64,000 nucleotides of DNA, taken from NCBI GenBank assembly GCA_963726375.1, contig CAVSCE010000011.1, positions 210,914 through 274,913 of the forward strand. Reading direction: 5' to 3'. The position numbers were made by a program, and so were the translations under genes. The notes under the pieces are model-generated. The model did not search any database. It was not told the DNA's origin and saw only the letters and a list, made by a program, of their open reading frames with translations. This stretch comes from an uncultured Chloroflexia bacterium. GTDB lineage: Bacteria > Chloroflexota > Anaerolineae > Anaerolineales > UBA4823. Of the stretch, positions 4,292-33,578 are shown in pieces; the first letter of the stretch is position 1, and each line of letters opens with the position of its first letter.

Positions 4292-4372
4292 ATTCGGGCA
4301 TGTAGCCATCCTTATTGGATTACTCATTTGCCGGCCGGATCCGCAGAAGACCCGACCGGCAGCTTCTTCAGG

Positions 4373-5034: not shown

Positions 5035-5041
5035 TCAGGAC

Positions 5042-6043: not shown

Positions 6044-6106
6044 AATTTAACCCATCCTCTCAATGTTCACTTCTGAATTTTGATAACGAAATCTTAACAC
6101 CAGTCG

Positions 6107-6118
6107 TCACAAATGTGA
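6107..6118. promoter_or_regulatory. Candidate operator TCACAAATGTGA in the dhaK1 upstream region
   Basis: The 12-mer has inverted TCACA/TGTGA arms and is identical to 20689..20700. On the minus strand it overlaps a sigma70-like TTCACA-17nt-TAAGAT arrangement 60-100 nt upstream of the dhaK1 start. Confidence 0.4.
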
Positions 6119-6146
6119 AGACATGGGAGAATTTGACCGATCGAGA

Positions 6147-9197: not shown

Positions 9198-9209
9198 TCA
9201 CGAATGTGA
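9198..9209. promoter_or_regulatory. Candidate operator TCACGAATGTGA in the divergent aldolase/ABC intergenic region
   Basis: One mismatch to the 12-mer at 6107 and 20689. It lies inside the spacer after a TTGACC hexamer (9185..9190). Confidence 0.35.
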
Positions 9210-9252
9210 CATTAGAAAAGCTCATTTAAGACCTTTTCAGGGCACCCGCTCA

Positions 9253-9292
9253 TTGACAAACTCACATATGCATGCTATATTCACGTATGTGA
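9253..9292 (+). promoter_or_regulatory. Sigma70-like promoter with an overlapping operator, facing the ABC importer operon
   Basis: TTGACA (9253..9258), 17 nt spacer, then TATATT (9276..9281). TCACGTATGTGA (9281..9292) overlaps the -10 and TCACATATGCAT (9262..9273) lies in the spacer. Confidence 0.45.
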
Positions 9293-9652: not shown

Positions 9653-11138
9653 ATGCAAAAACATCGATTTTTCAACACCGTTATGGTAGCGCTCTTGCTG
9701 CTTGGCTTGCTTGCAGCAGCTTGCGCCCCGGCTCCTACCCAGGCCCCGGCGCCCGCCGCAACCGAAGCTCCTGCTGCTCCAGCTCCCGCTGAACCCGTTG
9801 CTACCGAAGCTCCGGCTGAACCCGTTGCTACCGAAGCTCCAGCCGAGCCGGTCGCGACCGAAGCGCCTGCAGCCGAAGCGCCGAAGTCCGATGTCGAGCT
9901 GGTCTTCGTCTGGCACTCCGGTGGTCTCGGCGAGAAGTTTGAAGAGCTCGCTCAGCAGTACACCGCGTTGACCGGCGTAAAAGTTCGTGCGGACCTGGTC
10001 CCCTACGGCCCGCAGTGGCACGACAAGATCGCGGCCGAGTTCGCAGCCCAGGGCTCCGGCTTTGACCTGGCGATGTTCGACAGCCAGTCGATGTCCGAGT
10101 TTGCCTCCGGCGGTCACGTCGTTCAGCTGAACGACTACATCGACCAGAGCGAGCTGATCAGCGCTGAGGACTTCACCCCCGCTGCCCTGCGCCAGTACGG
10201 CGAGTATCCGGAAGGCTCTGGCAACATCTTCGCCCTCCCGATCAACCAGGACTGCATGGGCCTCGTCTACCGCAAGGACCTCTTTGAGGATCCGGCCGAA
10301 AAGGAAGCCTTCAAGGCCAAATACGGCTACGAGCTGGCTGTCCCCACCACCTACATGATGATGCGCGACATCGCTGAATTCTTCACCCGCCCCGAAGAGA
10401 ACCTCTACGGCCTGGCCTCCTACGGCAGCCGCGACTACGATGCGGTCACCAGCCCGCTGGACGGCGTGATCTGGTCGTACGGCGGAGCCCTCTGGGATCC
10501 TGAGACCAAGATGGCCCAGGGCGTGATCAACTCCGAGACCAACGTCAAGGCGCTTGAGTATCTACGCCGACCTGTTCCAGTTCATGCCCCCCGGCGCATC
10601 TGCCTGGTTCTACGACGAAGTCAACAACGCGGTCCACACCGGCATCGTCGCAATGGCGATCAACTGGTACTACTTCTTCTTCGTCCACGCCGACCCGGCG
10701 ATCAACCCCTACGCCGACAAGATGGGCTACGACGTACTCCCCGGCGAGATGGTCGACGGCAAGCTCAACCGCGGCATTTCCGTCGGCGGTCAGGGTCTTT
10801 CGATCTCGGCTTACTCGAAGAACATCGAAGAAGCCTGGAAGCTGCTCGAGTGGTTCATGACCAACGAGATCCAGTGGCAGTGGACCGAGATCGGCGCACA
10901 GACCGGTCGGGTCGACATCCTCACCGATCCAAGATATGTCACGACCAAGCCATGGAACGAGACCTTCCCTGAGTCGATGAAATATGTCCAGGATTACTGG
11001 CACGTGATCGAGTATCCTGAGCTGCTCGACATCTGGCAGAAGTACGCCAGCCTGGTCGTCTCCGGCGAAATGGGCGCGAAGGAAGCGCTGGACGCCGTCG
11101 CCGTGGAACACCAGGCGATCATGGATCAGATGGAGTAA
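9653..11138 (+). CDS. CUT1-family extracellular sugar-binding lipoprotein of the ABC importer, frameshift near 10558
   Basis: MQKHRFFNTVMVALLLLGLLAAAC is a lipobox signal, followed by a Pro/Ala/Thr/Glu linker. ORF 9632..10972 loses sense after ..NVKALEY. ORF 10554..11138 continues IYADLFQFMPPGASAWFYDEV.. to the stop. Confidence 0.8.
9791..9871 (+). repeat. 3 x 27-bp tandem repeat encoding (EPVATEAPA)x3 in the lipoprotein linker
   Basis: GAACCCGTTGCTACCGAAGCTCCGGCT is repeated at 9791, 9818 and (diverged) 9845. It is in frame within the SBP. Confidence 0.9.
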
Positions 11139-11154
11139 TTTCTTGTGTGAATCC

Positions 11155-11185
11155 GTCCCCGCGCAGAAGCCTTCTGTGCGGGGAC
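11155..11185 (+). promoter_or_regulatory. Strong intercistronic stem-loop between the SBP and permease genes
   Basis: GTCCCCGCGCAGAAG and CTTCTGTGCGGGGAC form ~13-15 bp with one mismatch and no U-tract. It sits 17 nt after the SBP stop, within a 213-nt gap. Confidence 0.5.
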
Positions 11186-11351
11186 GTAAACTTGACCCTG
11201 CTGGCGGCCCCGCAGCTATCTCAGACAAAGACCAGCTGGTGGTTGAGTCCATCACAAAGCTTGCGTTTCCCGATCTTCCACTCAAAATTCATCCCTGCCA
11301 GAAGATTGGGGACGCAAGCCCTCTAATAGATTTCTAAGTGGAGGCTGAAAC

Positions 11352-12287
11352 TTGAATACTGCCCTTCCTGCTCCTTCAGATGATAAACCCGTTGTCGTTA
11401 AACGACATGGGATGAGTGATGATGTCCTGAAAAGGGTTATGCTCGCGCCGGCGGTCCTGATCATTGTCGGCCTGGTGCTCTACCCGTTTCTTTGGGCTGT
11501 CTATTTGAGCTTTCATCAGTTTTCAATCCTGAAGAAAAAACCAGCCGTGTTTATTGGATTGGAGAATTATCAGAGCTTGCTTCACGATCCGGATATCTGG
11601 GAGCGGTTTATTTTTACCGGAAAATTTGTCTTCACAGTGGTATCGATTGAGCTGGTTTTCGGTTTCTTGATCGCATATTTCATTCACACGCAGTTCAAAG
11701 GGGGCGGCGTCTGGGTCACCCTGCTTCTGCTGCCGATGATGATCGCGCCGGTTATTTCTGGATTGTTCTGGAAATACATCCTCTCGAACAACTGGGGGGT
11801 GATTAACTATTTCATTAAGGGAATTCTGGGATTGCCTGAAGTCCAATGGTTGAGTACGAACACGGCGGGGTTTTGGTCGATTGTGATCGTCGACGTCTGG
11901 ATGTGGACCCCGTTCATGATGCTGCTCAGCCTGGCGGGTCTTTCGGCGGTTCCGACATACCTTTACGAATCAGCTGAAGTGGATCGGGCGTCGTCCTGGT
12001 TCAAGTTCACACGGATCACCCTGCCGCTGTCCGCTCCATTAATCTTGCTGGCGGTCGTTTTCCGGACGATTGATGCCTTCAAGACGACGGATATCGTCTG
12101 GGTGTTAACAGCCGGCGGACCCGGCTCTTCCACAGAGACTATCGCATACGCCCTCTACAAGCTGGCGTTTGCGTTCTACAAGACAGGCGAGGCTTCAGCC
12201 CTGGCGGTCATGCTCTTGATCACAGTGATCGGCCTGAGCATTATCCTTGTGCGCGTGCTGAACCGCGCCAAGCAAGCGACACAGTAG
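11352..12287 (+). CDS. ABC sugar transporter permease (MalF/UgpA-like)
   Basis: Intact 311-aa ORF with a TTG start and GGAGG 8 nt upstream. It is a multi-TM protein with an EAA-type loop (..ESAEVDRASSWFKFTRITLP..). Confidence 0.85.
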   Translation: MNTALPAPSDDKPVVVKRHGMSDDVLKRVMLAPAVLIIVGLVLYPFLWAVYLSFHQFSILKKKPAVFIGLENYQSLLHDPDIWERFIFTGKFVFTVVSIELVFGFLIAYFIHTQFKGGGVWVTLLLLPMMIAPVISGLFWKYILSNNWGVINYFIKGILGLPEVQWLSTNTAGFWSIVIVDVWMWTPFMMLLSLAGLSAVPTYLYESAEVDRASSWFKFTRITLPLSAPLILLAVVFRTIDAFKTTDIVWVLTAGGPGSSTETIAYALYKLAFAFYKTGEASALAVMLLITVIGLSIILVRVLNRAKQATQ

Positions 12288-12299
12288 ACGGAGCAAGCC

Positions 12300-13142
12300 A
12301 TGCATTCGAAAAAACTCTTAAAACGCATTCTTGCCTGGGCGCTGCTGATCCTCCTGATCGTGATCTTCATCTTTCCGTTTTACTGGATGGTCGCCACAGC
12401 CCTGAAAACCCGGATTCAGATCGTCAATATCCCCCCCCTGTTTATCTTCACGCCGACCTTAGATAATTTCAAAGGTGTCTTCTTCACAAGCTCCGGGTTG
12501 GAGACGAACTTTAAAGAATTCTTCAAGATGAGCATCATCATCAGCGCCCTGAGCACCTTTTTCTCGGTTCTCTTCGGCTCGCTGGCAGCCTACAGCGTCT
12601 CGCGCTTCAAGATGAAGGGTAAAGATGACCTGATGTTCTTCATCCTGAGCACGCGCATGCTCCCGCCAATCGCCACGCTGGTGCCGCTGTTCTTGATGTA
12701 CCGTCAGCTCGGCCTTTCCGACACGGTGCACGGGATGGTTCTGCTGTATACGATGTTCAACCTGGGCTTTACGACCTGGATGATGAAGAGCTTCTTCGAT
12801 GAGATCCCGATCGAATATGAGGAAGCCGCGCTGATGGACGGCTACAGCCGCTGGGAAGCGTTCGTGAAAGTAGTCCTGCCTCAATCGGTCACCGGCCTGG
12901 CAGCCTCGGCTGTCTTCTGCCTGATCGCGAGCTGGAACGAATTTGTTTACGGATCTATCCTGACGACCCGTTATGCCCGTACGGTCCCGCCGGCGGTGGC
13001 AGTGCGCGTCGGTCACGAAGGATACGAGTGGGGCAAGATCGCCGCGACGGCCTTCATGTACGTCTTACCAGTATTGATTTTCACCTTCCTGGTTCGAAAA
13101 TCCTTGCTGCGCGGTCTCACCTTTGGCGCGATCAAGAAATAG
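12300..13142 (+). CDS. ABC sugar transporter permease (MalG/UgpE-like)
   Basis: Intact 280-aa ORF with an EAA motif (EEAALMDGYSRWEAFVKVVLP), immediately after the first permease. Confidence 0.85.
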   Translation: MHSKKLLKRILAWALLILLIVIFIFPFYWMVATALKTRIQIVNIPPLFIFTPTLDNFKGVFFTSSGLETNFKEFFKMSIIISALSTFFSVLFGSLAAYSVSRFKMKGKDDLMFFILSTRMLPPIATLVPLFLMYRQLGLSDTVHGMVLLYTMFNLGFTTWMMKSFFDEIPIEYEEAALMDGYSRWEAFVKVVLPQSVTGLAASAVFCLIASWNEFVYGSILTTRYARTVPPAVAVRVGHEGYEWGKIAATAFMYVLPVLIFTFLVRKSLLRGLTFGAIKK

Positions 13143-13182
13143 GCCGAAGAGGATCGATTCTTCAGAGAGTGAGATACCAAAC

Positions 13183-14277
13183 ATGGCTAAAGTCGAATTA
13201 CGTGATATTGTCAAGAGATACGGTCAAAATGTCGCCGTCAATCATGTCAACCTGACCGTCGAGGACGGCGAATTCCTGATCTTACTGGGTCCATCAGGCT
13301 GTGGGAAAACGACCAGCTTGCGCAGTATCGCCGGGTTGGAAGCTCTGGATGGAGGCGAAATACTGATCGATGACGTCGTCGTCAATGACAAACGTGCCTC
13401 AGATCGAGATACAGCTTTTTGCTTCCAGCAGTACGCCCTGTACCCCCACCTGACTGCATTTGAAAATATCGCCTTCCCGCTCCGAACGCAGCAGATGGCC
13501 AATCAGGAAGTGGAACACCGCGTGACTGAGGTTGGAAAGCAGCTTCAGATTGAAGAGATCTTCACAAGAAAACCCAGCAAATTGAGCGCCGGCGACCAGC
13601 AGCGCGTCGCCCTGGCGCGCGCGATGGTCCGGCAGCCGAAAGTCTATCTGATGGATGAGCCGCTGTCCAACCTGGACGCTCAGCTGCGCGTCGATATGCG
13701 CGGCGAGCTCCGCCGGCTTCAAATAACCAACAGAATCACCACCATATATGTTACTCACGACCAGACCGAAGCGATGGCCATGGCCGACCGGATTGCGATC
13801 ATGAACCTGGGCGTGCTCCAGCAGGTCGGCACCCCGGACGATGTCTATACCTATCCGGTAAACTTGTTTGTGGCGAATTTCATCGGCAGTCCCAGCATGA
13901 ATTTCATCAATTGCGAATATGTTGCCGCCGATCATGGTGTGCGCATTCCGACGGAGACCGATTCGGTCGTCTACAGACTTCCGGAAGATATCAAGCAATC
14001 GGTTTCTGGTTTGAAAGACGGCGATGAGCTGGTTTTGGGCATCCGGCCGGAAGACGTGTACATTCATACGGAACCGGTGGATGATGGTTTTGAAGTCAAA
14101 TACATCCTGTTGGAAGCCCTGGGATCTGAGAACATCCACCATGTCGGTCACAGTAATCTGTTTGTGATTGCTCGAACCTCTCCGGCTGATGTCTTCGAAG
14201 AAGGCCAGTCCCTCTGGATTTCTTTCGAGCATGCTGGTATCCGGCTTTTCGATCGAAAAACCGAGATGGCGATTTAG
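13183..14277 (+). CDS. MalK/UgpC-like ABC ATPase 1, with an atypical LSAGD signature
   Basis: Starts MAKVELRDIVKRYG. Has Walker A GPSGCGKTT, signature LSAGDQQRV, Walker B VYLMDEPLS, H-loop THDQ and a C-terminal MalK-type regulatory domain. Confidence 0.85.
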   Translation: MAKVELRDIVKRYGQNVAVNHVNLTVEDGEFLILLGPSGCGKTTSLRSIAGLEALDGGEILIDDVVVNDKRASDRDTAFCFQQYALYPHLTAFENIAFPLRTQQMANQEVEHRVTEVGKQLQIEEIFTRKPSKLSAGDQQRVALARAMVRQPKVYLMDEPLSNLDAQLRVDMRGELRRLQITNRITTIYVTHDQTEAMAMADRIAIMNLGVLQQVGTPDDVYTYPVNLFVANFIGSPSMNFINCEYVAADHGVRIPTETDSVVYRLPEDIKQSVSGLKDGDELVLGIRPEDVYIHTEPVDDGFEVKYILLEALGSENIHHVGHSNLFVIARTSPADVFEEGQSLWISFEHAGIRLFDRKTEMAI

Positions 14278-14287
14278 GAAGGTTGCT

Positions 14288-15361
14288 ATGTCTGAAGTCA
14301 ATATCATAGGTTTACAGAAGAGTTTTGGAGATGTCCAGGCGTTGAACGATGTCTCGTTTGACGTGAAGGATCACGAGTTTGTGACCATGCTTGGGCCTAC
14401 CGGCGCAGGAAAAACGACGACACTCCGCTGCGTCGCCGGTTTGGAGAAGCTGGATTTGGGCGAGATTCATCTCAGCGGAGCAAATATCAACATGCTGCCT
14501 CCTGGCCAGCGAAATATGGCCTTTGTTTCACAGCATTACGCCCTGTACCCGCATATGACGGTTCGCCGCAACCTGCAGTTCCCGCTGGACAAAACAGAAA
14601 TGACCAGCGATCAGAAGAAAGCGCGGATCGATGAGATCGCCAAGATCCTTCACATCGTCCCGCTGCTTCAGCGATATCCGAGCAAGCTGAGCGGCGGTGA
14701 AATGCAGCGCGTTGTCATCGGGCGAGCGATGGTCCGCAGCCCGCAGTTGTTCCTGCTGGATGAGCCGCTGTCCAACCTGGATGCCAAGCTTCGGGAAGAG
14801 CTCCGCTTCGAGCTCAAACGCTTGCAGAAAGAGGCCGGTTCGACCACGCTCTACGTCACCCACGACCAGATCGAGGCGATGTCGATGTCAGACAGGGTCG
14901 TGGTGATCGACAAAGGTGTGCTGCAGCAAATCGGCAGACCATCCGAGATTTATTCCTATCCTGCAAACGTTTTGGTTTCCAGCATCGTCGGCACCCCCCC
15001 GATGAACATCGTACCCGTGGTCGTCGGCGATAATCGCTTCAATCTCGAAACGAATGGCCACGGCGCAGAGCTGCCCTCCAACTATAAGAACATCCTTGCA
15101 CCCGGGAAATATCAGCTGGGTGTTCGCCCGGAAAATGTAAAACTTGTCTCAAAATCGGCTCCGAACGCCCTACCGGCCGAGGTATTGGTGATCGAAGCGT
15201 TTGGATACGAAAAGCTGGTGGAGATCGATCTGGCGAAGACCCGAGTCCGCGCCCGGGTTTCGCCGCGCACAAAGCTGAAGGTCGGCGAGAAAATTTTTAT
15301 CCAGCTCGATGAGAATAAGACGCGTTTCTTCGATGTCAGCGGTACGTTGATTCGCTCCTGA
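14288..15361 (+). CDS. MalK/UgpC-like ABC ATPase 2, with a canonical signature
   Basis: Starts MSEVNIIGLQKSFG. Has GPTGAGKTT, LSGGEMQRV, LFLLDEPLS and THDQ. It begins 10 nt after ATPase 1. Confidence 0.85.
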   Translation: MSEVNIIGLQKSFGDVQALNDVSFDVKDHEFVTMLGPTGAGKTTTLRCVAGLEKLDLGEIHLSGANINMLPPGQRNMAFVSQHYALYPHMTVRRNLQFPLDKTEMTSDQKKARIDEIAKILHIVPLLQRYPSKLSGGEMQRVVIGRAMVRSPQLFLLDEPLSNLDAKLREELRFELKRLQKEAGSTTLYVTHDQIEAMSMSDRVVVIDKGVLQQIGRPSEIYSYPANVLVSSIVGTPPMNIVPVVVGDNRFNLETNGHGAELPSNYKNILAPGKYQLGVRPENVKLVSKSAPNALPAEVLVIEAFGYEKLVEIDLAKTRVRARVSPRTKLKVGEKIFIQLDENKTRFFDVSGTLIRS

Positions 15362-15378
15362 GCCTCTTGGAGGAAAAC

Positions 15379-15546
15379 ATGGAAAAACGAAAAAAATTTG
15401 GTATTTACGGAGATATGATCGCGATTGGGCTGATCATCGCCGGATTCTTGATGATGGTTCAACCGCTGACGATGTTGCTGTACACGATTGGATTTCCAGT
15501 AATCCTGTCAGGCGTCGTTCTGTTTAATATCAGCTCGCATTATTAG
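15379..15546 (+). CDS. 55-aa two-TM small membrane protein (below the ORF-track cutoff)
   Basis: My own translation gives MEKRKKFGIYGDMIAIGLIIAGFLMMVQPLTMLLYTIGFPVILSGVVLFNISSHY. GGAGGA lies 7 nt upstream. The ORF fills the gap between ATPase 2 and dhaK2. Confidence 0.5.
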   Translation: MEKRKKFGIYGDMIAIGLIIAGFLMMVQPLTMLLYTIGFPVILSGVVLFNISSHY

Positions 15547-15570: not shown

Positions 15571-16575
15571 ATGGCAAAGAAGATAATCAACAACCCAAAG
15601 GATGTCGTCCAGGAGACGATTTCTGGTTATTTGATGATGCACCCTGGAGAGTTTCGCCAGCTGGAAGGCGTCACGGCCATCGTAAAGACTCAGCTGGACC
15701 CGGATAAGGTCGGGTTGGTCATCGGCGGAGGCAGCGGGCACGAACCGATCTTCCTCGAATTCATTGGCAAGGGCTATGCCGATGCGGTTGCGATGGGCAA
15801 CATCTTCGCCGCCCCGTCCCCGGATATCGTCCTCGCCGCGACCCAGGCGGTCGACCGGGGCAAGGGCGTCCTTTACGTATATGGGAATTACGCCGGCGAC
15901 AACCTGAATTTTGACATGGGCGCAGAGCTGGCCGATCTGGAAGGCATTCGGACTGAAACCGTGCGCGTCTGGGATGATGTCGCATCGGCGCCGCCGGAAC
16001 GCATCACCGACCGCCGCGGCATCGCCGGAGATTTTTATGTGATCAAAGTCGCTGGCGGCTGCTGCGATGCCGGCCTTGACCTGGATGAAGTAAAAAGGAT
16101 AACTACCAAGGCGCGAGACAATACCCGCACCATGGGCGTCGCCCTTTATCCAGGCACGATCCCGGGTGAAGGCACACCCGCCTTCACCCTCCCGGAAGAT
16201 GAGATTGAAATCGGCCTGGGCCTGCACGGCGAACCGGGCGTCCGCCGCGGCAAAATCCAGCCAGCGGATAAACTGGTCGACGAGATGATGTCGCTGATCG
16301 TCCCCGACCTGCCCTTTAAGGCCGGCGACGAGGTTTGCGCACTGATCGACGGCTTTGGATCAACGACGCGCATGGAGCAGCTGATTGCGATGCGCCGGAC
16401 TCTGCAGAACCTCGAACACATGGGCTTCAAAGTTCACCAGGCGGATGCGGGTGCTTACGCGACCTGCCAGGAGATGGCCGGTTTTTCGATCACCCTGATG
16501 CGCCTGGATGAAGAGCTTAAAAAGTATTTCGATTGGCCGGTTTGGTCGACGGTTTACAAGAACAGGCCGCGGTGA
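15571..16575 (+). CDS. dhaK: Dihydroxyacetone/ketose kinase subunit DhaK (copy 2)
   Basis: Intact 334-aa ORF with GGGSGHEP, NYAGD, DRRGIAG and GLHGEPG. Confidence 0.9.
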   Translation: MAKKIINNPKDVVQETISGYLMMHPGEFRQLEGVTAIVKTQLDPDKVGLVIGGGSGHEPIFLEFIGKGYADAVAMGNIFAAPSPDIVLAATQAVDRGKGVLYVYGNYAGDNLNFDMGAELADLEGIRTETVRVWDDVASAPPERITDRRGIAGDFYVIKVAGGCCDAGLDLDEVKRITTKARDNTRTMGVALYPGTIPGEGTPAFTLPEDEIEIGLGLHGEPGVRRGKIQPADKLVDEMMSLIVPDLPFKAGDEVCALIDGFGSTTRMEQLIAMRRTLQNLEHMGFKVHQADAGAYATCQEMAGFSITLMRLDEELKKYFDWPVWSTVYKNRPR

Positions 16576-16582
16576 GCTGTTT

Positions 16583-17230
16583 ATGGAAAGCCTGACAGCT
16601 TCTCAGCTAAAAGACATGCTGATGCATGTCGCGAAATCAGTCATCGATTCAAAAGAACAGCTTTGCGAGGCCGATCGGAATATCGGCGACGGCGATCACG
16701 GAATCGGGATGGCGCTGGGCATGGAAGCCGCTGCCAACGAGCTGGCTGCAAAGGAATTCACCGACGTCTACGCTGTTTTCGGGACCGTTGGACGTACGAT
16801 GATCAAAGTGATGGGTGGGGCCTCGGGCATCATCTTTGGCCTGCTTTTCTATGCAGGCTCGAAGAACATGCAGCCGAAATCCGAGCTGTCCACGCAGGAT
16901 TTCGCCGAAGTCTTCGCCAGGGCGTTGGCCGAAATCCAGGCTAAGGGCGGGGCACAGCTGGGAGACAAGACCATCGTGGACGGGCTGCAGCCGTTCGTCG
17001 AAGCGCTGCAAAAAAGCCAATCTGCTGGAGAGGGCTTCAAGCCATTGCTTCGTGCAGGCTATGCTGCCGCCGAGGCCGGGAAGGAAAAAAGCAAGCAGTA
17101 CATCGCCCGTTTCGGCAAAGCAAAAACCCTCGGCGAGCGGGCGGTTGGTTTCCCGGACGCAGGCTGCGTGACGCTGACGGTGATTTCCAGGTCGATGTGT
17201 GAGTGGGCAGACGCGAACCTGGCGGAATAA
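16583..17230 (+). CDS. dhaL: Dihydroxyacetone/ketose kinase subunit DhaL (copy 2)
   Basis: Starts MESLTASQLKDML (ATG 16583) within ORF 16508..17230. Has DRNIGDGDHG and GDKT. Confidence 0.88.
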   Translation: MESLTASQLKDMLMHVAKSVIDSKEQLCEADRNIGDGDHGIGMALGMEAAANELAAKEFTDVYAVFGTVGRTMIKVMGGASGIIFGLLFYAGSKNMQPKSELSTQDFAEVFARALAEIQAKGGAQLGDKTIVDGLQPFVEALQKSQSAGEGFKPLLRAGYAAAEAGKEKSKQYIARFGKAKTLGERAVGFPDAGCVTLTVISRSMCEWADANLAE

Positions 17231-17391: not shown

Positions 17392-17856
17392 ATGCCGGCA
17401 AAAGAATTGATCTTAGGCTGCGACTTTGCTGCAGTAAAGCTTATGAAGGTAGTCCGCAAGCTGCTTGAAGACCAGGCGATCGCTTACACGTTCATCGGGG
17501 TCGAAGACGAATCGGATGAGACGGCCTATCCACTGATCGCCCGGCAGGTCGCTGAAGCGATCATCGCGAGCGGTTATCAGAAAGAAGGAATTTTGATCTG
17601 CGGCACCGGGATTGGAATGTCGATCAGCGCCAACAAGTTCCCGGGGATCTATGCCGCGATCTGCCACGACGGTTATTCAGCCGAGCGGGCGCGCCTGAGC
17701 AACAGCACCAACGTGCTCTGCATGGGGGCGCGCGTGATCGGGCCTGAGCATGCCAAAAAAGTTCTCAGCGCCTGGTTGAAGACTGAGTTTCAGGGCGGGC
17801 GCTCCCAGGCGAAGCTCGATCTCATTCGATCGTTTGAGCAGGAGCTCTACCGATGA
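17392..17856 (+). CDS. rpiB: RpiB/LacA/LacB-family sugar-phosphate isomerase
   Basis: Intact 154-aa ORF with ICGTGIGMSISANK, NVLCMGARVIG and FQGGRSQ. Confidence 0.85.
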   Translation: MPAKELILGCDFAAVKLMKVVRKLLEDQAIAYTFIGVEDESDETAYPLIARQVAEAIIASGYQKEGILICGTGIGMSISANKFPGIYAAICHDGYSAERARLSNSTNVLCMGARVIGPEHAKKVLSAWLKTEFQGGRSQAKLDLIRSFEQELYR

Positions 17857-18638
17857 GCCTTCGGTTCCAGACCTTGTTTGTGGGCTCAAACTTGAAGATG
17901 TACCAGACGAACCGCCAGACGCTGGAGTTCCTGGATCAGCTCCAGCAGCTCACGGGCGATATCCCGCGCTCGCAGCTGAAATTGTTCATCCTGCCGTCCT
18001 ATACGGCTCTGGCTGATGCCTGCCGGATGGTGGATCACGGTCGGATCTGGATCGGTGCGCAGAACATGCATTGGGAAGAGCAGGGCCAGTTCACCGGCGA
18101 GATTTCGCCCATCCAGCTGCGGGATATCGGTGTCGATCTCGTTATGGTCGCCCACGCCGAGCGCCGCCAGCACTTCGGGGAAACCGACGCGCTGGCGAAC
18201 CGCAGGGTGCTTTCAAGCCTGGCGCATGGTTTCCAGACCCTGCTGTGTGTCGGAGACCGCCGCGAAGACCTGCAGTCCGGGCGGTCGGCGGAGGTCTTAA
18301 GCCGCCAGCTGGAGGTTGGATTGACGGGCGTGAATTCCGAACAGGCAGACCGCTTGTGGGTCGCCTATGAGCCGGCCTGGGCGATCGGTGAGGGTGGGAC
18401 GGTCGCCGACCCTGCTTTTGCAAACGAGATGCACGCGGTCCTGCGCATGATCCTCAGGAAATGCTTCCCGGACCGGGAAGCGGGCGTGCCGCTGCTCTAC
18501 GGCGGCAGCGTGAACTTGGAGAATGCGGTGGATTTGATCCGCCAACCCGAGATCGACGGGCTGTTCATCGGCCGCGCCGCCTGGGACGCAGCCCGGTTGA
18601 ATCGAATCGTGCGCGATACCCTCGCTACCCGGCGTTGA
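17853..18638 (+). CDS. Triose-phosphate-isomerase-family protein (non-canonical, EryH/TpiA2-like inferred)
   Basis: 261-aa ORF whose start overlaps the rpiB stop (ATGA). TIM motifs are present but altered: SNLKMY, VAHAERR (canonical GHSERR), YEPAWAIGEG (canonical YEPVWAIGTG), YGGSV. Confidence 0.8.
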   Translation: MSLRFQTLFVGSNLKMYQTNRQTLEFLDQLQQLTGDIPRSQLKLFILPSYTALADACRMVDHGRIWIGAQNMHWEEQGQFTGEISPIQLRDIGVDLVMVAHAERRQHFGETDALANRRVLSSLAHGFQTLLCVGDRREDLQSGRSAEVLSRQLEVGLTGVNSEQADRLWVAYEPAWAIGEGGTVADPAFANEMHAVLRMILRKCFPDREAGVPLLYGGSVNLENAVDLIRQPEIDGLFIGRAAWDAARLNRIVRDTLATRR

Positions 18639-19675
18639 GCTCCGGGTTGATCGAAACCTTCATCGCCGTTCCAGCGATCATCAATTTAAGCGCTTCTTCG
18701 GTCTGCTCGAGCGGCATCTCGCCCGAGAGCATGAAGCGCGTGTCGATCAGGCCTGACGCGACCAGGTTGCAGGACTCCCAAAAATCGACCGGGGAGTTGC
18801 CGTGCGTGTTGAACAGGCTGATTTCGCCGTAATGGACAGCCGGCGCGTCGAGTTCGACGATCGTCCCGCTCTTCAATCCGCCGAACCACAGCACCCGACC
18901 TCCGCGCCTTGCAGCGCGCACTGCGCCTTCCCAGGTCTCCTTCGCTCCGGCGCATTCGATCGAGACGTCCGCGCCGCGCCCGGCGGTGAGATCGCGGATC
19001 GCCTGAACGGCGTCCGCACGGCCCGCGTTGATGATCGCAGAGGCGCCGAGCTGCCGGGCATACTCCAACCGCTCGTCGTTGCGGTCGACCACGATCACTT
19101 CCGCCGCCCCGGACGAACGGGCGAGCTGCAGGTGCATCAGGCCCACTGCCCCGCCGCCGCCCATAATCGCGACCTTCTCGCCGGGTCGGATCTGGATCAT
19201 TTTATGCGAGTGGACGACCGAGGCCAGCGGTTCCATCAGGGCAGCCTGGGCGTAGCTCAGGTGCTCGGGGACCACAAGCGTGTTCCAGCGCACGAATGTG
19301 CCGGGAAGCCTGACGTACTCCGCATAGGCGGCAAAGTTGTGAATCATGTTCTCGCAGATGTTTTCCTGGTGGTGCTTGCACGGGTAGCAGGCGCCGCAAG
19401 GCCCAAAACAGCTGGCAGTCACGCGCATCCCCAGGCTGAAATTCTCCACCATGCGGGCCTATCTCAACCACGTCCCCTGCAAATTCGTGCCCAAACAGGA
19501 ACGGAGGCGGGTATTTCGGGTGCCCGCGCAGGTAGGTTTTAACGTCGGTGCCGCAGGTTGTGGCCGAGCGAACCTTGACGAGCATTTCATCCGGGCCGAT
19601 CACCGGCATCGGCACTTCCTGCACCTGCAGCTTTTCAGGTCCCAAATAGACGACAGCGCGCATTGTTTTTGTCAT
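18625..19675 (-). CDS. Zn-dependent medium-chain polyol/alcohol dehydrogenase (sorbitol/threonine-DH-like), frameshift near 19450
   Basis: ORF 19202..19693 is the N-part (CGTD..GHEFAG). ORF 18625..19452 is the remainder (structural-Zn CGACYPCKHHQENIC, Rossmann MGGGGAVG). It is convergent with the TIM-like gene and overlaps it by 14 nt. Confidence 0.8.
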
Positions 19676-19689: not shown

Positions 19690-20572
19690 TCAAAGTTGTT
19701 GAGCCGCGCCAGCCATATTCAGCTCGGCGATCGCGCCTGTAAAATCTTGCTCGTGGACGATCTTCTGGATCGCGCGGATCATTTTTTCGGGGTGGGGGTG
19801 CTGCCAGACGTTCCGGCCGAAAGTAATCCCCGAGGCGCCCCGCTGGATGCAGACCAGCACATCATGCAGCATCTCCTCGACGCACTGGCTTTTTCCGCCG
19901 CCCAGCAGCACGATCGGAGCCGGGCAGGACTCTGCGATCCTTTCCATCTCCTCCGGCACGTCCGGGAAATCGCTTTTCACCACGTCTGCCCCGATCTCGA
20001 ACGCGATCCGAGCCATATCCGCCAATATTTTCGAAATCTTTAATCGGCTTTCCCTCGAACCGCAGCCCCCAGGTGGTCGGCTCGATCATCACCGGGATCC
20101 CCAGTCGATGGCAGCTCTCGATGGTCGCTGCGGCAAAAGCCATGTTGTCGATCTGGCGGTTGCTCTGCTCCTGACCGAAGATCAGGCAAATCTTGACCAT
20201 ATCCGCGCCCAGGCGGGCCGCCTCTTCGGCGGAAATGGTGGGCACCTGACCGTCGGTCCTGTCGCCGCCCGGGAAGTTCGCAAACAGTGGGAAATCGACC
20301 GCCAGGATCACCGCCGGCGACTCTCTGCCGGTGAGCAGATATCCAAAGCGGCGCAGCGCCCCGGGATTCACCAATATACCTTCAGGCTTGCCGGCTAAAA
20401 CCTGCTCGAGGCGTTCGCCCAGGTTCTCCAGGCCGGCAACAGCGCCCATCGCGACGCCGTGGTCAACCGCGACTGCGACGCACCGGCCTGTCTCTTTATT
20501 AAACAGACGGCTGGTGCGGATTGTGACTCCATAATCAAAAGCCTGGTTCAGCATGAAGGACACCTCGTTCAT
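19690..20572 (-). CDS. Class-I aldolase, DeoC/FbaB(DhnA)/LsrF family (copy 2), frameshift near 20042
   Basis: ORF 19862..20572 makes sense up to ..FEGKPIK. ORF 19690..20025 continues KISKILADMARIAFEIGADVVKSDFP (putative Schiff-base Lys)..FGRNVWQ. Confidence 0.78.
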
Positions 20573-20632
20573 GGATGGATGGAATTTCAGATTATTTTGG
20601 TGGTCCGCCTGGATCGAGCAGCGGATGTTCGA

Positions 20633-20700
20633 TTGACAAATCCGAAAATGAGCGTTAAACTAGCAATAATTACATTTGTGATATTATATCACAAATGTGA
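20633..20700 (+). promoter_or_regulatory. Sigma70-like promoter followed by a 27-bp perfect palindrome, upstream of the PFP-type pfk
   Basis: TTGACA (20633..20638), 17 nt spacer, then TAAACT (20656..20661). The palindrome ACATTTGTGATAT-T-ATATCACAAATGT spans 20672..20698 and contains TCACAAATGTGA at 20689..20700. Confidence 0.55.
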
Positions 20701-20728
20701 CGAAATAGGCAGGTCTCAGGAGGTTGTC

Positions 20729-21946
20729 TTGACGAAGCTCAAAGGGAATCTTGTTGTCGGGCAGTCGGGTGGGCCGAGCGCTGTGATCAACGGCTCGGTC
20801 TGCGGTGTTGTTCAGGAGGCATTTCGACACCCGGAAATCGAAGAGGTTTACGGTATGCGCCATGGGATCGAAGGGTTGCTCCGCGAAGACCTGCTGGACT
20901 TTCGCAAGGAAGCGCCGGATGATATTGATGGGCTGCGCAAGACGCCTTCTTCTGCATTGGGATCCTGCCGCTTCAAGACCAGCGATGACGACCTGGAGCA
21001 GATCGTTCGGATCTGCCGGCTGCATAACATCCGCTTCTTCATGTATGCCGGCGGTGGAGATTCGATGGATACCGCAGACAGGCTTTCAAGAGCCGCATCG
21101 GCTCAAAATTTTGAGATGCGGATCATCGGCGTCCCTAAAACGATTGACAACGATCTTCCTGTCACCGACCACTCTCCGGGATACGGCTCGGCGGCGCGCT
21201 ATATCGCGACGATATGTACCGAGATGAAGCGAGATGCGATCGCACTGCGTCACACTGAAAGGGTCAAGATCCTCGAGACGATGGGCCGCAACAGCGGCTG
21301 GCTGGCAGCAGCCTCGGCGCTCGCCGATGATTACGCCCCGGACCTGATCTATCTCCCAGAACGGCGGTTGACAGAAGACCAGATCCTGGCGGATATCGAC
21401 GACTTGCTCCGCACAAAGGGTTTCGTCTTCCTGGCCGCTAACGATGGATTGAGAAAGCCGGACGGGAGCTTCATCTCGATGAATACCGATCCGCTGAACA
21501 CCGATGCCTTCGGCCACCCGGAGCCGGGTGACCTGGGCAAATATCTCGCCGATCTGGTGATGACGAAGCTGAAGGTCAAAGCGCGCGCCGATAAACCCGG
21601 GATCATCCAGCGCTGCGCCGGGCAGTTTATCTCTCCAGCGGATGCGGACGAAGCTTATCGCGTCGGGCAGCGGGCGGTCATCCAGGCTGCCGCCGGCGAG
21701 AGCGGGCAGATGATCACGCTCGTCCGCGAGCCTGGCGAGCCTTACGTCTGCTCTACCGGCGCTGTCCCGCTCGGTCTGGTCTCGAACCTTGAAAAATTAG
21801 TCCCAGGCGAATACATCCATCCGTCTGGAAACCAGGTTGCGGAAAAATTTAAGGAATATGCTCGCCCGCTGATCGGCGGGCCTCTCCCGGATTATGTCAC
21901 GCTGAAAGCTTTTCCGGTCAAGAAGCTTCTGAAGCAGCCATCCTGA
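20729..21946 (+). CDS. Phosphofructokinase, long PFP(PfpB)-like type; phosphoryl donor not resolvable from sequence
   Basis: TTG start with AGGAGG 5 nt upstream, within ORF 20459..21946. Has GQSGGPSAVINGSV, GGGDSMDT, GVPKTIDNDL and MGRNSGW. Length 405 aa. Confidence 0.8.
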   Translation: MTKLKGNLVVGQSGGPSAVINGSVCGVVQEAFRHPEIEEVYGMRHGIEGLLREDLLDFRKEAPDDIDGLRKTPSSALGSCRFKTSDDDLEQIVRICRLHNIRFFMYAGGGDSMDTADRLSRAASAQNFEMRIIGVPKTIDNDLPVTDHSPGYGSAARYIATICTEMKRDAIALRHTERVKILETMGRNSGWLAAASALADDYAPDLIYLPERRLTEDQILADIDDLLRTKGFVFLAANDGLRKPDGSFISMNTDPLNTDAFGHPEPGDLGKYLADLVMTKLKVKARADKPGIIQRCAGQFISPADADEAYRVGQRAVIQAAAGESGQMITLVREPGEPYVCSTGAVPLGLVSNLEKLVPGEYIHPSGNQVAEKFKEYARPLIGGPLPDYVTLKAFPVKKLLKQPS

Positions 21947-22029: not shown

Positions 22030-23187
22030 ATGGGTAAACCAGCGCTCACGCCTCGCGAGAGAGTCATCATGGCGATCAACCATCAGGAGCCGGACCGGGT
22101 TCCCTTCGACCTCTACCTTAGCGCGGCGGCGTACCATGAGCTCCGGGCTTATCTCGGCCTCCCACCGGATCCGGATCAAAAGGTGGGCATCTGGTCGGAG
22201 GTCTCTCCGGCTGTCGACCTGCTCGATGCGATCCGCGTGGATTTCCTTTATATCGGATTGAACCCGGCATCCAAACCCTCGCCTCTGGCTCGAGACGACG
22301 GTCTGCTGTACGACCAGTGGGGAGTGGGGCGGAAGAAAGTCGAGCTGCCCGAGGGTGGAAGCTATTACGAAATGGAGCGCTATCCGCTGGCGAATCCGAC
22401 TCTTCAGAGCATTGCGGAGTACCCCTGGCCGGATCCTTATGATCCCCGAAGGGTGGAGGGGCTGCGCGAAAAATTCCTGCAGGCGCAGCGGGAATCGGAT
22501 AAGGCGATTGTCAGCCGGTTCGCTACCTCAATCTGGGAGCAGGCCACCTATCTGGTCGGATTCCAGGAATTCCTGGAGCTGGCTGTGCTCCAGCCCGAGA
22601 TCGCTGAGGCTGTGCTGGATAGGACTACCGAGGTCGCGATGGGCATGGCGGATGTGGGGATCGGGGCCGTCGGCGACCTGATCGACATCTACCGGATGAG
22701 CGGCGAAGACATGGGCACCCAGCGCTCGCCGCTGATCTCCCCCAGGATGTACGCCCGCCTGGTCGAGCCGCGCTTCAGACGCTATTGGAAATTCATCAAG
22801 CAAAAATTGTCTGAAGCAGGCTCCTCGGCGAAGATCATGGTCCATTCCTGCGGGACGGTTCGCGCCTTCCTGCCGAGCTGGATCGAGATGGGCCTGGATA
22901 TCCTCGACCCCGTCCAACCCCTGGCTTTGGGGATGGAGCCCGAAGGCTTGAAGCGTGACTTCGGTCGGGAGCTGACCTTCCACGGCGGGATCGATCTGCA
23001 GGAGCTGCTGCCGAAGGGAACTCCGGAGCAGGTCATGGAAGGAGTCCGCGATATGATCCGGACCTTGGGTCCTGGCGGCGGGTACATCGTCTCTCCGGCG
23101 CATAACGTCCAGCAGGATGTCCCGCCAGAGAACCTGGTCGCGATCCGTGATGCGATCGAGCTGTATGGAGCTTACCCGATCCAATAA
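22030..23187 (+). CDS. Uroporphyrinogen-decarboxylase (URO-D) family protein, MtaA/CmuA-like; function unknown
   Basis: Starts MGKPALTPRERVIMAINHQEPDRVPFD within ORF 21970..23187. The N-terminus and ..HSCG..DILDPVQP.. are typical of the URO-D family. Confidence 0.7.
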   Translation: MGKPALTPRERVIMAINHQEPDRVPFDLYLSAAAYHELRAYLGLPPDPDQKVGIWSEVSPAVDLLDAIRVDFLYIGLNPASKPSPLARDDGLLYDQWGVGRKKVELPEGGSYYEMERYPLANPTLQSIAEYPWPDPYDPRRVEGLREKFLQAQRESDKAIVSRFATSIWEQATYLVGFQEFLELAVLQPEIAEAVLDRTTEVAMGMADVGIGAVGDLIDIYRMSGEDMGTQRSPLISPRMYARLVEPRFRRYWKFIKQKLSEAGSSAKIMVHSCGTVRAFLPSWIEMGLDILDPVQPLALGMEPEGLKRDFGRELTFHGGIDLQELLPKGTPEQVMEGVRDMIRTLGPGGGYIVSPAHNVQQDVPPENLVAIRDAIELYGAYPIQ

Positions 23188-23205
23188 GTAAAAGCGGATT
23201 GCCAG

Positions 23206-33481: not shown

Positions 33482-33565
33482 ATGGTTGGATTTGCCGGGA
33501 TATTGACCCTGGCTCTGCTGGGTTACCTGTTTGTAGAGCTGCTTTTTGCGGATCGGTTCAAGTGA
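33482..33565 (+). CDS. kdpF: K+-transporting ATPase subunit F
   Basis: My own translation gives MVGFAGILTLALLGYLFVELLFADRFK (27 aa). The LLGYL..L..P/A..F pattern and the position before kdpA fit KdpF. Confidence 0.65.
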   Translation: MVGFAGILTLALLGYLFVELLFADRFK

Positions 33566-33578
33566 TCGAGGTGCGGCG

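What the first reader, a model, noticed from the sequence alone, without database searches (positions are those of the whole stretch)
19690..21946. Divergent class-I aldolase / PFP-type PFK pair may drain erythrose-4-P via sedoheptulose-1,7-bisphosphate
Seen in sequence: an FbaB/LsrF-family aldolase (19690..20572, minus) and a long PFP-like PFK (20729..21946, plus) diverge from one 156-bp control region. That region carries the cluster-wide palindromic operator. A second aldolase of the same family (8201..8986) heads the other arm. Established knowledge: PPi-type PFKs can interconvert sedoheptulose-7-P and sedoheptulose-1,7-bisphosphate, and FBP-type aldolases cleave or form SBP from DHAP plus erythrose-4-P. 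This has been reported as a transaldolase bypass in cellulolytic clostridia. Inference: if the neighbouring genes produce E4P (and DHAP from DhaKL), this pair would condense them to SBP and convert it to S7P. That would feed the pentose-phosphate pathway without transaldolase.
Basis: inference. Interest (0 to 1): 0.55.

Follow-up and report, generated by a model that had tools for sequence, protein, structure and literature searches.

The report
Aldolase–PPi-PFK pair in polyol regulon

Summary
The two genes and the palindrome are real. However, the aldolase (19690-20554, minus) carries a one-base frameshift at about 20033-20036. The window has many such indels, so this is most likely a long-read sequencing error.

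The PFK (20729-21946) belongs to the PRK14072 PPi-PFK subfamily and carries the PPi sequence signatures. It belongs to a distinct PFK clade (NJ bootstrap 85/100), and in every member whose surroundings could be read it is followed by a URO-D-like gene.

The aldolase defines a small DhnA subfamily with an invariant EPTTWG motif in place of the archaeal YPRG. It is always linked to a Zn-ADH, an ABC importer, DhaKL and a TIM-like gene.

The divergent aldolase|PFK arrangement recurs in 7 of 9 readable orthologous loci. The promoter and operator are invariant across seven loci. An unlinked PFK-URO-D operon carries a closely similar operator, so co-regulation is well supported.

The neighbouring genes match known erythrulose-to-E4P clusters. 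The SBP-shunt idea is therefore plausible, and Brucella and clostridia offer precedents.

It remains untested, and three things weaken it:
- The aldolase is not a canonical FBP/SBP aldolase.
- The aldolase occurs without the PFK in two loci and in all distant relatives.
- Absence of transaldolase could not be checked.

An erythrulose-1-phosphate aldolase role is a serious rival.

The parts
19690..20554 (-). ald1: DhnA-type class I aldolase of the 'EPTTWG' subfamily. The reading frame is broken by one extra base near 20033-20036. When repaired it is 287 aa.
   Evidence: PF01791 matches both halves. Three-frame translation. DNA alignment with the intact ortholog L093 and with L085. The family alignment A2 runs across the junction without a gap.
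20633..20661 (+). Sigma-70-like promoter TTGACA-17-TAAACT pointing towards the PFK.
   Evidence: Promoter scan: 10 of 12 matches, 0.2 expected in shuffles. Both hexamer positions are conserved in 7 loci.
20670..20700 (.). Composite palindromic operator: two 12-nt boxes of type TCACAAwTGTGA, 19 nt apart. On the minus strand its centre (20691-20683) reads TGATATAAT, an extended -10 box facing ald1.
   Evidence: The minus-strand -10 box was read from the sequence (inference).
20729..21946 (+). PFK-B: PPi-type 6-phosphofructokinase, 405 aa, TTG start preceded by AGGAGG.
   Evidence: NF010675 451 bits against a cut-off of 273. Best PDB matches are the PPi-PFKs 3k2q and 3hno. Motifs GGGDSMDT and PKTIDND. 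Member of a distinct clade, 85/100.
22030..23187 (+). URO-D/MtaA-like protein of unknown function, apparently co-transcribed with the PFK.
   Evidence: PF01208 88.7 bits. Only 21 bits to solved URO-D structures. Follows the PFK in the window, L001, L083, L085, L092, L094 and L095.
18625..19675 (-). Zn-dependent polyol-type alcohol dehydrogenase, downstream of ald1 in the same operon. Frameshifted near 19453.
17853..18638 (+). TIM-family isomerase: either a true triose-phosphate isomerase or an erythrulose-phosphate isomerase.
   Evidence: PF00121. Just below the TIM equivalog cut-off, 267 against 293. 49% identical to a canonical TpiA.
17392..17856 (+). RpiB/LacAB-family sugar-phosphate isomerase.
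   Evidence: TIGR01120 141.8 bits against 138.65. DerI model 134.9 bits against 240.
15571..17230 (+). DhaK (15571-16575) and DhaL (16583-17230), subunits of an ATP-dependent DAK-type kinase.
   Evidence: PF02733 and PF02734. NCBIfam.
9653..15543 (+). CUT1-type ABC importer: SBP, two permeases, two MalK-like ATPases, and a conserved 55-aa membrane ORF at 15379-15543.
8201..8986 (-). ald2: LsrF-type DhnA-family protein, first gene of the left arm.
   Evidence: NF006081 354.9 bits against 297. 256 bits to E. coli LsrF.
3533..8005 (-). Rest of the left arm: frameshifted bifunctional aldolase/SDR (6147-8005), DhaK2 (5042-6043), frameshifted DhaL2 (4373-5013), frameshifted SorC-family regulator (3533-4301).
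6107..6118 (.). Operator core copy upstream of DhaK2.
9198..9292 (.). Two operator-core copies (9198-9209 and 9281-9292) in the divergent ald2|SBP region.

Best explanation
The pair belongs to a repressor-controlled regulon, probably under the SorC-type regulator, for a small polyol. The polyol is most likely a tetritol (erythritol or threitol). The organism is probably an Anaerolineae-like Chloroflexota bacterium.

Proposed steps (all catalytic steps are inferred):
1. The ABC importer takes up the polyol.
2. The Zn-ADH oxidises it to erythrulose.
3. The DhaKL kinases phosphorylate erythrulose.
4. The TIM-like and RpiB-like isomerases convert erythrulose phosphate to erythrose-4-phosphate.
5. 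The EPTTWG-type class I aldolase condenses E4P with DHAP to sedoheptulose-1,7-bisphosphate.
6. The dedicated PPi-PFK paralog converts SBP plus Pi to S7P plus PPi. Carbon then enters the non-oxidative pentose-phosphate pathway. The same two enzymes could also interconvert F6P, FBP and triose phosphates.

Shown here: gene identities, PPi-type sequence signatures, conserved synteny, shared promoter and operator, and a separate PFK clade.

Inferred: the substrate, every catalytic step, and the direction of flux.

The frameshift in the aldolase is most likely an assembly error.
For: 1. The PFK meets the PPi-PFK subfamily threshold. It has Asp in GGxD, Lys in PKTIDND and a non-Gly residue at the adenine-blocking position (criteria from PMC12203962). 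PPi-PFKs of clostridia and methanotrophs use S7P nearly as well as F6P (PMC7029132, PMC12203962).

2. The window has two further PFK genes. One of them (PFK-A, 844-1960) carries the ATP-type GGDG motif, so PFK-B need not be the housekeeping enzyme.

3. PFKs linked to ald1 or URO-D form one clade, separate from the stand-alone PFKs of related organisms (NJ bootstrap 85/100).

4. The divergent ald1|PFK arrangement occurs in 7 of 9 orthologous loci with readable flanks: the window, L085, L001, L083, L093, L094 and L095.

5. The control region is otherwise poorly conserved (49% mean identity), yet -35, -10 and operator are invariant. L092 has PFK-URO-D away from ald1 behind a promoter of the same layout and the same operator core. 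The operator core also precedes the importer, ald2 and DhaK2 operons.

6. ADH, DAK-type kinase, TIM-like and RpiB-like genes together are the known signature of erythrulose-to-E4P clusters (PMC5992420, citing Barbier 2014; PMC10733421).

7. In Brucella, erythritol-derived E4P enters metabolism via Tal or via Fba, and the double mutant cannot grow on erythritol (PMC11508834).

8. ald1 keeps the class I core. This comprises the Schiff-base Lys199, Asp37-His38, and the Gly224-Gly225 and Gly252-Arg253 phosphate site, plus an invariant Glu164 (residue roles from PMC2728841).
Against: 1. ald1 lacks the catalytic Tyr and the neighbouring Arg of archaeal class IA FBP aldolases (Thr166 and Trp168 in EPTTWG). 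It is far below every NCBIfam FBP-aldolase cut-off.

2. ald1-ADH stays with the DhaKL/TIM/importer cluster in L086 and L087, where no PFK is adjacent.

3. Family members at 31-51% identity lie in other sugar or polyol clusters. These contain FGGY kinases, dehydrogenases or an aldehyde:ferredoxin oxidoreductase, and never a PFK within 10 kb. That pattern fits a ketose-monophosphate aldolase.

4. The PFK's invariable neighbour is a URO-D-like gene with no role in this scheme.

5. Cluster-linked PFKs share no diagnostic active-site substitution relative to stand-alone ones.

6. The RpiB-like gene is missing from L083, and the TIM-like protein looks nearly canonical. E4P formation is therefore itself an inference.

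7. Presence or absence of transaldolase in the genome is unknown.
Confidence: 0.4

Rival explanations
1. ald1 is a ketose-1-phosphate aldolase that cleaves the product of the ADH plus DhaKL steps. For a tetritol this would be erythrulose-1-phosphate to DHAP plus formaldehyde (EC 4.1.2.2, the route proposed long ago for Propionibacterium pentosaceum). For a larger polyol it would be DHAP plus another aldehyde. On this reading the PFK-URO-D operon is a separate regulon member with a different job, not the aldolase's partner.
For: - ald1 is co-operonic with the ADH and always linked to DhaKL, with or without a PFK.
- Distant family members sit with FGGY kinases and dehydrogenases, and in L090 with an aldehyde:ferredoxin oxidoreductase that could remove a free aldehyde.
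- Only one phosphate site is recognisable, and the Arg of the YPRG motif is replaced by Trp.
- Class I and class II DHAP aldolases are known to make or cleave erythrulose-1-phosphate.
- A cleavage role in erythritol catabolism has been suggested for P. pentosaceum and S. meliloti (PMC10733421).
Against: - No formaldehyde-detoxifying or assimilating gene was recognised in the regulon.
- The TIM-like and RpiB-like isomerases point to the E4P route.
- The PFK is adjacent in 7 of 9 loci and shares the operator.
Confidence: 0.25
2. The PFK, the aldolase and the TIM are simply substrate-induced isoenzymes of ordinary glycolysis and gluconeogenesis (F6P to FBP to DHAP plus GAP). They add capacity when the polyol is used, with no special role for seven-carbon sugars.
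For: - The three genes encode consecutive glycolytic enzyme types.
- The TIM-like protein is 49% identical to a canonical TpiA.
- Cluster-linked PFKs show no specificity-changing substitution.
- PPi-PFKs are reversible and common in anaerobes (PMC12203962).
Against: - ald1 lacks defining features of FBP aldolases.
- The window already has another PFK with the ATP-type motif.
- FBP and SBP activities normally coexist in one enzyme pair, so this rival overlaps with the main explanation rather than excluding it.
Confidence: 0.15
3. In this strain the aldolase and the ADH are genuine pseudogenes, so the pair is not functional here.
For: - The frameshift is in the deposited record: the database holds the truncated 230-aa product from a 333,570-bp contig.
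- The related assembly L085 is also out of frame at the same spot, with a different indel.
Against: - Apart from the single indel, the gene is intact and keeps all invariant family residues.
- At least eight genes in 26 kb are split.
- There are 25 gap openings against L085 in 10.6 kb, several of them compensating pairs inside genes.
- Both the window's close relative L085 and the more distant relatives L001 and L083 come from Flye-style long-read metagenome contigs that also contain split genes.
Confidence: 0.1

Closest known systems
Sedoheptulose-1,7-bisphosphate pathway of cellulolytic clostridia and Entamoeba (PPi-PFK plus FBP aldolase in place of transaldolase; PMC7029132)
   Same: The PFK is PPi-type, of the PRK14072 subfamily by the NCBIfam model. 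Whether the characterised clostridial enzymes belong to that same subfamily was not verified here. It is paired with a DHAP-dependent aldolase, and the proposed chemistry is identical (E4P + DHAP <-> SBP <-> S7P).
   Different: In clostridia the housekeeping glycolytic enzymes do the job, and the aldolase is a canonical FBP aldolase. Here the PFK is a separate paralog clade wired into a catabolic regulon, and the aldolase belongs to an uncharacterised DhnA subfamily. The proposed flux runs in the opposite direction (E4P consumption). Activity and absence of transaldolase are unknown.
Brucella erythritol catabolism, in which E4P enters central metabolism via transaldolase or via Fba (PMC11508834; Barbier 2014)
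   Same: A polyol is converted to E4P by TIM-family and RpiB-family isomerases, under a SorC-type regulator (that EryD is SorC-type is from my own knowledge). An aldolase route via SBP is physiologically relevant.
   Different: Brucella phosphorylates erythritol first (EryA/EryB) and uses its chromosomal class II Fba and phosphatases. Neither a PFK nor an aldolase is part of the ery locus. Here DAK-type kinases act on the ketose, and a PPi-PFK would replace the phosphatase.
Erythrulose-kinase type tetritol clusters (Mycobacterium smegmatis EltD/LerK/LerI/DerI; Yarrowia EYD1/EYK1/EYI1; PMC10733421, PMC5992420)
   Same: Dehydrogenase, DAK-family kinase, TIM-like isomerase and RpiB-like isomerase are clustered with a transporter.
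   Different: None of the descriptions of these clusters that I read mentions an aldolase, a PFK or a URO-D-like gene as part of them. The window's isomerases do not reach the curated DerI model cut-off.
DhnA-family class I aldolases: T. tenax FBPA, M. jannaschii MJ0400 (ADH synthase), E. coli LsrF (PMC2728841)
   Same: Same fold family (PF01791). The Schiff-base Lys, general-base Asp, His and Gly-Gly/Gly-Arg phosphate site are conserved.
   Different: The catalytic Tyr of FBPA and MJ0400 is absent, as is Asp251 of LsrF. An invariant Glu in EPTTWG may take that role. Identity to MJ0400 and LsrF is only about 30%.
Ketotetrose-phosphate aldolase, EC 4.1.2.2 (erythrulose-1-phosphate formaldehyde-lyase)
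   Same: A DHAP-dependent aldolase proposed to act in erythritol catabolism directly after an erythrulose kinase. This matches ald1's tight linkage to the ADH and DhaKL.
   Different: I found no dedicated gene or sequence for this activity to compare with. No formaldehyde-handling genes were seen here.

Membership tests
PPi-dependent phosphofructokinase (EC 2.7.1.90), PRK14072-type | PFK domain and a subfamily model score above the curated cut-off | tested here: met
   PF00365 190 bits. NF010675 451.2 bits against a cut-off of 273, over model positions 3-414 of 416.
PPi-dependent phosphofructokinase (EC 2.7.1.90), PRK14072-type | Asp at the fourth position of GGxD (E. coli Gly104, B. burgdorferi Asp177), which blocks the ATP alpha-phosphate site | tested here: met
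   GGGDSMDT in the window, GG(G/N)D in all 22 aligned relatives, and the same in the PDB PPi-PFKs 3k2q and 3hno. Criterion from PMC12203962.
PPi-dependent phosphofructokinase (EC 2.7.1.90), PRK14072-type | Lys in PKTIDxD, and a residue larger than Gly at the B. burgdorferi Asn181 position | tested here: met
   VPKTIDNDL, and Thr four residues after the Asp. The review notes that the Lys alone is not decisive.
PPi-dependent phosphofructokinase (EC 2.7.1.90), PRK14072-type | Use of PPi rather than ATP, and activity on S7P/SBP | not testable with these tools
   Needs an enzyme assay.
SBP pathway replacing transaldolase | No transaldolase in the genome | not testable with these tools
   Only 64 kb is available.
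SBP pathway replacing transaldolase | An aldolase that makes or cleaves SBP | not testable with these tools
   ald1 is DHAP-aldolase-like by its conserved residues, but its acceptor specificity cannot be read from sequence.
Archaeal-type class IA FBP aldolase (FbaB/DhnA, T. tenax FBPA) | PF01791 fold with the Schiff-base Lys and general-base Asp | tested here: met
   Lys199 in DVVKSD, Asp37 in VDHG; both invariant in 24 family members.
Archaeal-type class IA FBP aldolase (FbaB/DhnA, T. tenax FBPA) | Catalytic Tyr (YPRG motif) acting as proton shuttle | tested here: not met
   The MJ0400 Tyr aligns with Thr166, and the motif is EPTTWG in the whole subfamily. Role of the Tyr from PMC2728841.
Archaeal-type class IA FBP aldolase (FbaB/DhnA, T. 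tenax FBPA) | Curated NCBIfam model score | tested here: not met
   NF040816 gives 19.5 + 62.6 bits for the two halves against a cut-off of 430. The best model (PRK07226) gives 68.6 + 93.2 against 241.
LsrF (3-hydroxy-5-phosphonooxypentane-2,4-dione thiolase) | NF006081 equivalog score | tested here: not met
   ald1: 51.1 + 86 bits against 297. ald2 (8201-8986) does meet it with 354.9 bits, but has Asn where LsrF has Asp251.
Tetritol (erythrulose-kinase type) catabolic cluster producing E4P | Polyol dehydrogenase, DAK-type kinase, TIM-family isomerase and RpiB-family isomerase clustered together | tested here: met
   All four families are present in one regulon. The same set occurs in L001 and L087; RpiB is absent from L083.
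Tetritol (erythrulose-kinase type) catabolic cluster producing E4P | Isomerases that are specifically erythrulose-phosphate isomerases (DerI/EryI, LerI/EryH) | tested here: inconclusive
   The RpiB-like protein scores 134.9 bits against 240 for the DerI model but passes the generic rpiB model. The TIM-like protein is closer to a canonical TpiA (49%) than to rhizobial plasmid paralogs (about 41%).

The most novel reading that the evidence does not exclude
The regulon hard-wires a transaldolase-independent, PPi-conserving route for erythrose-4-phosphate into a polyol catabolic system. It would use three dedicated parts that have not been described together:
- a Glu-type (EPTTWG) DhnA aldolase subfamily acting as SBP aldolase;
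- a separate PPi-PFK paralog clade acting as a reversible SBP/S7P phosphotransferase;
- a URO-D-like enzyme catalysing a further, unknown step.

A second novel reading is that the EPTTWG subfamily is the missing gene for erythrulose-1-phosphate aldolase (EC 4.1.2.2). That enzyme is wanted for synthetic formaldehyde assimilation.
Probability: 0.3. Interest if true: 0.6.

Novelty: new variant of a known kind. Interest (0 to 1): 0.45.

Why it matters
If the pair really converts E4P plus DHAP to S7P, it would be the first case in which the SBP shunt is a dedicated, substrate-induced module built into a catabolic regulon, rather than a side activity of housekeeping glycolytic enzymes. It would also give a function to an uncharacterised class I aldolase subfamily and to a distinct PPi-PFK clade in poorly studied Chloroflexota.

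If the aldolase instead cleaves erythrulose-1-phosphate, it would supply a gene for an enzyme activity known since the 1950s that is of interest for engineered formaldehyde assimilation (PMC10733421).

Either way, the conserved operator, the two promoters and the unexplained URO-D-like partner make a compact system that can be tested directly.

Tried and rejected
1. A methylation motif as the cause of the frameshifts. The ald1 indel lies in TTCGAA, but none of the other 19 TTCGAA sites and no other simple motif coincides with the other frameshift sites.

2. Specificity-determining residues shared by cluster-linked PFKs. None were found. The window's own PFK has 19 private changes at otherwise conserved positions, including Glu239 to Asp, but its relatives P0002 and P0037 do not share them.

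3. Guessing the substrate from solved structures. The SBP has only weak matches (45 bits or less). The ADH matches generic threonine/sorbitol-dehydrogenase-type enzymes.

4. Classifying the TIM-like gene as LerI/EryH via rhizobial plasmid paralogs. It is closer to a canonical TpiA, so this is inconclusive.

5. Testing whether L087 (ald1 cluster without PFK) and L092 (PFK-URO-D alone, same metagenome) come from one genome. Tetranucleotide correlation is 0.87, against 0.97-0.98 for pairs of closely related loci (window/L085, L094/L095), so this is inconclusive.

6. A transaldolase search was possible only within the window.

7. The 80 genome loci around generic PPi-PFKs (50% identity or less) show no ald1. 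Only L002 and L003 have an ald2-like aldolase upstream.

8. A literature search for URO-D-like proteins in sugar clusters gave nothing useful.

9. The window's own PFK (P0001) could not be found in the contig index, so the source genome could not be explored.
Full report
**What is in the sequence**

The region contains, on the minus strand, a DeoC/LacD-family (DhnA-type) class I aldolase. On the plus strand it contains a 405-aa phosphofructokinase at 20729-21946, with a TTG start preceded by AGGAGG.

The N-terminal 185 residues and the C-terminal 110 residues lie in different frames. Alignment with the intact ortholog in L093 (82% protein identity) places a single extra base in a T run at about 20033-20036.

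Once repaired, the protein aligns without a gap across the junction and keeps every invariant family residue. The probable start is the second ATG at 20554. It has a GAGGTG ribosome-binding site, and the first ATG is missing in L085.

**Is the frameshift real?**

The adjacent Zn-ADH is split at about 19453. So are a GH94 gene (three pieces), DhaL2, the SorC regulator, an aldolase/SDR fusion and another PFK.

L085 is a 93%-identical relative from a Flye-style metagenome assembly. Against it there are 25 gap openings in 10.6 kb. Many are inside genes and some are compensating pairs. L085 itself is out of frame at the same ald1 site, with a different indel.

I read this as long-read sequencing error. 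A genuine pseudogene cannot be excluded (about 10%).

**The PFK**

- It scores 451 bits on NCBIfam NF010675 (PRK14072, diphosphate--fructose-6-phosphate 1-phosphotransferase; cut-off 273).
- Its best solved relatives are the PPi-PFKs 3k2q and 3hno.
- It has GGGD with the Asp that blocks the ATP alpha-phosphate site, Thr at the adenine-blocking position, and PKTIDND. The criteria come from PMC12203962.

The window holds two more PFK-family genes. PFK-A (844-1960, frameshifted) has GGDG, the ATP-type motif. PFK-C (57424-58674) has lost the TIDND catalytic motif. PFK-B is therefore not the only PFK of this organism.

**The aldolase**

Its closest solved relatives are MJ0400 (118 bits) and LsrF (103 bits). 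It lies below all curated cut-offs.

Only 76 homologs were found among 5.8 billion proteins. The subfamily has an invariant EPTTWG motif where the archaeal FBP aldolase and MJ0400 have the catalytic Tyr (YPRG). It keeps Lys199, Asp37-His38, Gly224-Gly225 and Gly252-Arg253 (residue roles from PMC2728841).

The invariant Glu164, together with Lys127 and Lys199, may mimic the Lys-Glu-Lys arrangement of classical class I aldolases. This is inference from sequence only.

**Context**

The window's cluster has four parts:
- Left arm (minus strand): SorC regulator, DhaL2, DhaK2, bifunctional aldolase/SDR, and LsrF-type ald2.
- Right arm (plus strand): SBP, two permeases, two ATPases, a 55-aa membrane ORF, DhaK, DhaL, RpiB-like and TIM-like.
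- Minus strand: ADH and ald1.
- Plus strand: PFK and URO-D-like.

A dehydrogenase, a DAK-type kinase, a TIM-like isomerase and an RpiB-like isomerase together are the known signature of erythrulose-to-E4P clusters in bacteria and Yarrowia (PMC5992420, PMC10733421). The isomerases cannot be assigned specifically, though.

**Conservation**

The same synteny (importer, DhaKL, TIM, ADH<-ald1 | PFK->URO-D) occurs in L001 (PFK 65% identical), L083 (59%), L085, L093, L094 and L095. Two further contig-length coincidences suggest additional pairs.

L086 and L087 keep ald1-ADH with the importer/DhaKL/TIM cluster but have no PFK next to it. L092 has PFK-URO-D alone.

Stand-alone PFKs of related organisms (L082, L084) and 80 generic PPi-PFK loci lack ald1.

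PFKs linked to ald1 or URO-D form one long-branched clade (bootstrap 85/100). They share no diagnostic substitution.

More distant ald1-like genes (31-51% identity) lie in other sugar or polyol clusters. These contain FGGY kinases, other dehydrogenases and, in L090, an aldehyde:ferredoxin oxidoreductase. None is next to a PFK.

**Regulation**

The 27-nt palindrome at 20672-20698 is unique in the window. Its 12-nt core also occurs at 6107, 9198 and 9281, each upstream of an operon of the cluster. In total there are 12 strand-specific matches against 3.2 expected.

In seven loci the control region is only 49% identical on average. Even so, TTGACA, the -10 hexamer 17 nt downstream and the operator are invariant.

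On the opposite strand the operator centre reads TGATATAAT, an extended -10 box facing ald1 (read from the sequence).

The operator also precedes ald1 in L086 and L087 and the unlinked PFK-URO-D operon in L092. Co-regulation of the PFK with the cluster is therefore well supported.

**Interpretation**

- Clostridia and Entamoeba use a PPi-PFK plus an aldolase instead of transaldolase (PMC7029132, PMC12203962).
- Brucella needs either Tal or Fba to use erythritol-derived E4P (PMC11508834).
- PPi-PFKs of clostridia and methanotrophs accept S7P.

The regulon evidence found here strengthens the functional link. I take this as the single most likely reading (about 0.4).

It is weakened in several ways:
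- The aldolase is non-canonical.
- The aldolase is independent of the PFK in part of its range.
- The PFK has an unexplained URO-D-like partner.
- Neither enzyme activity nor absence of transaldolase can be checked here.

The main rival (about 0.25) is that ald1 cleaves the ketose-1-phosphate made by the ADH and DhaKL. For a tetritol that would be erythrulose-1-phosphate to DHAP plus formaldehyde (EC 4.1.2.2).

A third reading (about 0.15) is plain inducible glycolytic isoenzymes. This overlaps with the main one.

**Novelty**

The enzyme families and the SBP concept are known. The following appear to be undescribed:
- the combination in one operator-controlled polyol regulon;
- the distinct PFK clade;
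- the EPTTWG aldolase subfamily;
- the URO-D-like partner.

I rate the finding a new variant of a known kind, of moderate interest. The case is genomic only.

Noticed in passing
window 844-1960 (-) and 57424-58674 (-): There are two further PFK-family genes in the same 64 kb. PFK-A is a frameshifted 'mixed' type of about 360 aa with GGDG plus PKTIDND. PFK-C is a 416-aa divergent paralog with GDDD, and with TIHNN in place of the catalytic TIDND, so it may be non-catalytic or have a new function.
   Followed up: partly
window 22030-23187 (+); L001, L083, L085, L092, L094, L095: A URO-D/MtaA-like gene always follows the cluster-type PFK. It scores only 21 bits against solved URO-D structures and has an HSCG motif reminiscent of the MtaA zinc site. 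It belongs to a large family (3554 hits) that is mostly not next to a PFK. Its function is unknown.
   Followed up: partly
window 6147-8005 (-): A frameshifted 'bifunctional aldolase/short-chain dehydrogenase' (NF006196; the SDR half scores 388 bits, the N-terminal half only 60 bits and has no Pfam class II aldolase hit). It lies between LsrF-like ald2 and DhaK2.
   Followed up: partly
window 8201-8986 (-): ald2 passes the LsrF equivalog threshold. However, it has Asn where E. coli LsrF has the proposed catalytic Asp251, and it sits in a polyol cluster rather than an lsr operon.
   Followed up: no
window 15571-16575 (+) and 9653-10972 (+), versus L001, L083, L086, L087, L093: DhaK is 89-91% identical across loci whose other genes are 56-75% identical. 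Where the SBP is readable it is 84-88% identical in L083, L087 and L093, but only 55% over a short fragment in L001. This suggests unusually strong constraint or recent exchange of this part of the cluster.
   Followed up: no
window 15379-15543 (+): A conserved 55-aa hydrophobic ORF lies between the second ATPase gene and dhaK (68.5% identical to L001). It is also called in L083, L086 and L087.
   Followed up: partly
window 1-26000 generally: Single-base frameshifts split at least eight genes. There are 25 gap openings against the 93%-identical L085. The window looks like an unpolished long-read assembly, so any ORF-level claim needs checking.
   Followed up: yes
window 20024-20040: The ald1 frameshift lies in a T run inside AATATTTTCGAAAT. 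The independent assembly L085 is also out of frame at exactly this spot, but with a different indel. This could be a systematic base-calling problem or a real hotspot.
   Followed up: partly
window 23172-25649 (-): A GH94 (cellobiose/chitobiose-phosphorylase-like) gene in three pieces lies directly after the URO-D-like gene. It is not conserved at this position in L001 or L083.
   Followed up: no
window 1981-3115 (-): An N6/N4 DNA methylase gene overlaps an ORF with a RAMA domain. This may be a restriction-modification remnant.
   Followed up: no
window 33546-40692 (+): A kdpA and kdpB-like P-type ATPase and a kdpD sensor kinase, unrelated to the cluster.
   Followed up: no
L090 8611-15263 and L097-L106: A sister group of the aldolase (44-51% identity) is always followed by a different Zn-ADH. 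In L090 the gene order is a UbiD-like decarboxylase (upstream of the aldolase), the aldolase and Zn-ADH, an FGGY kinase, and then an aldehyde:ferredoxin oxidoreductase, all under a SorC regulator. This appears to be an undescribed catabolic cluster.
   Followed up: partly
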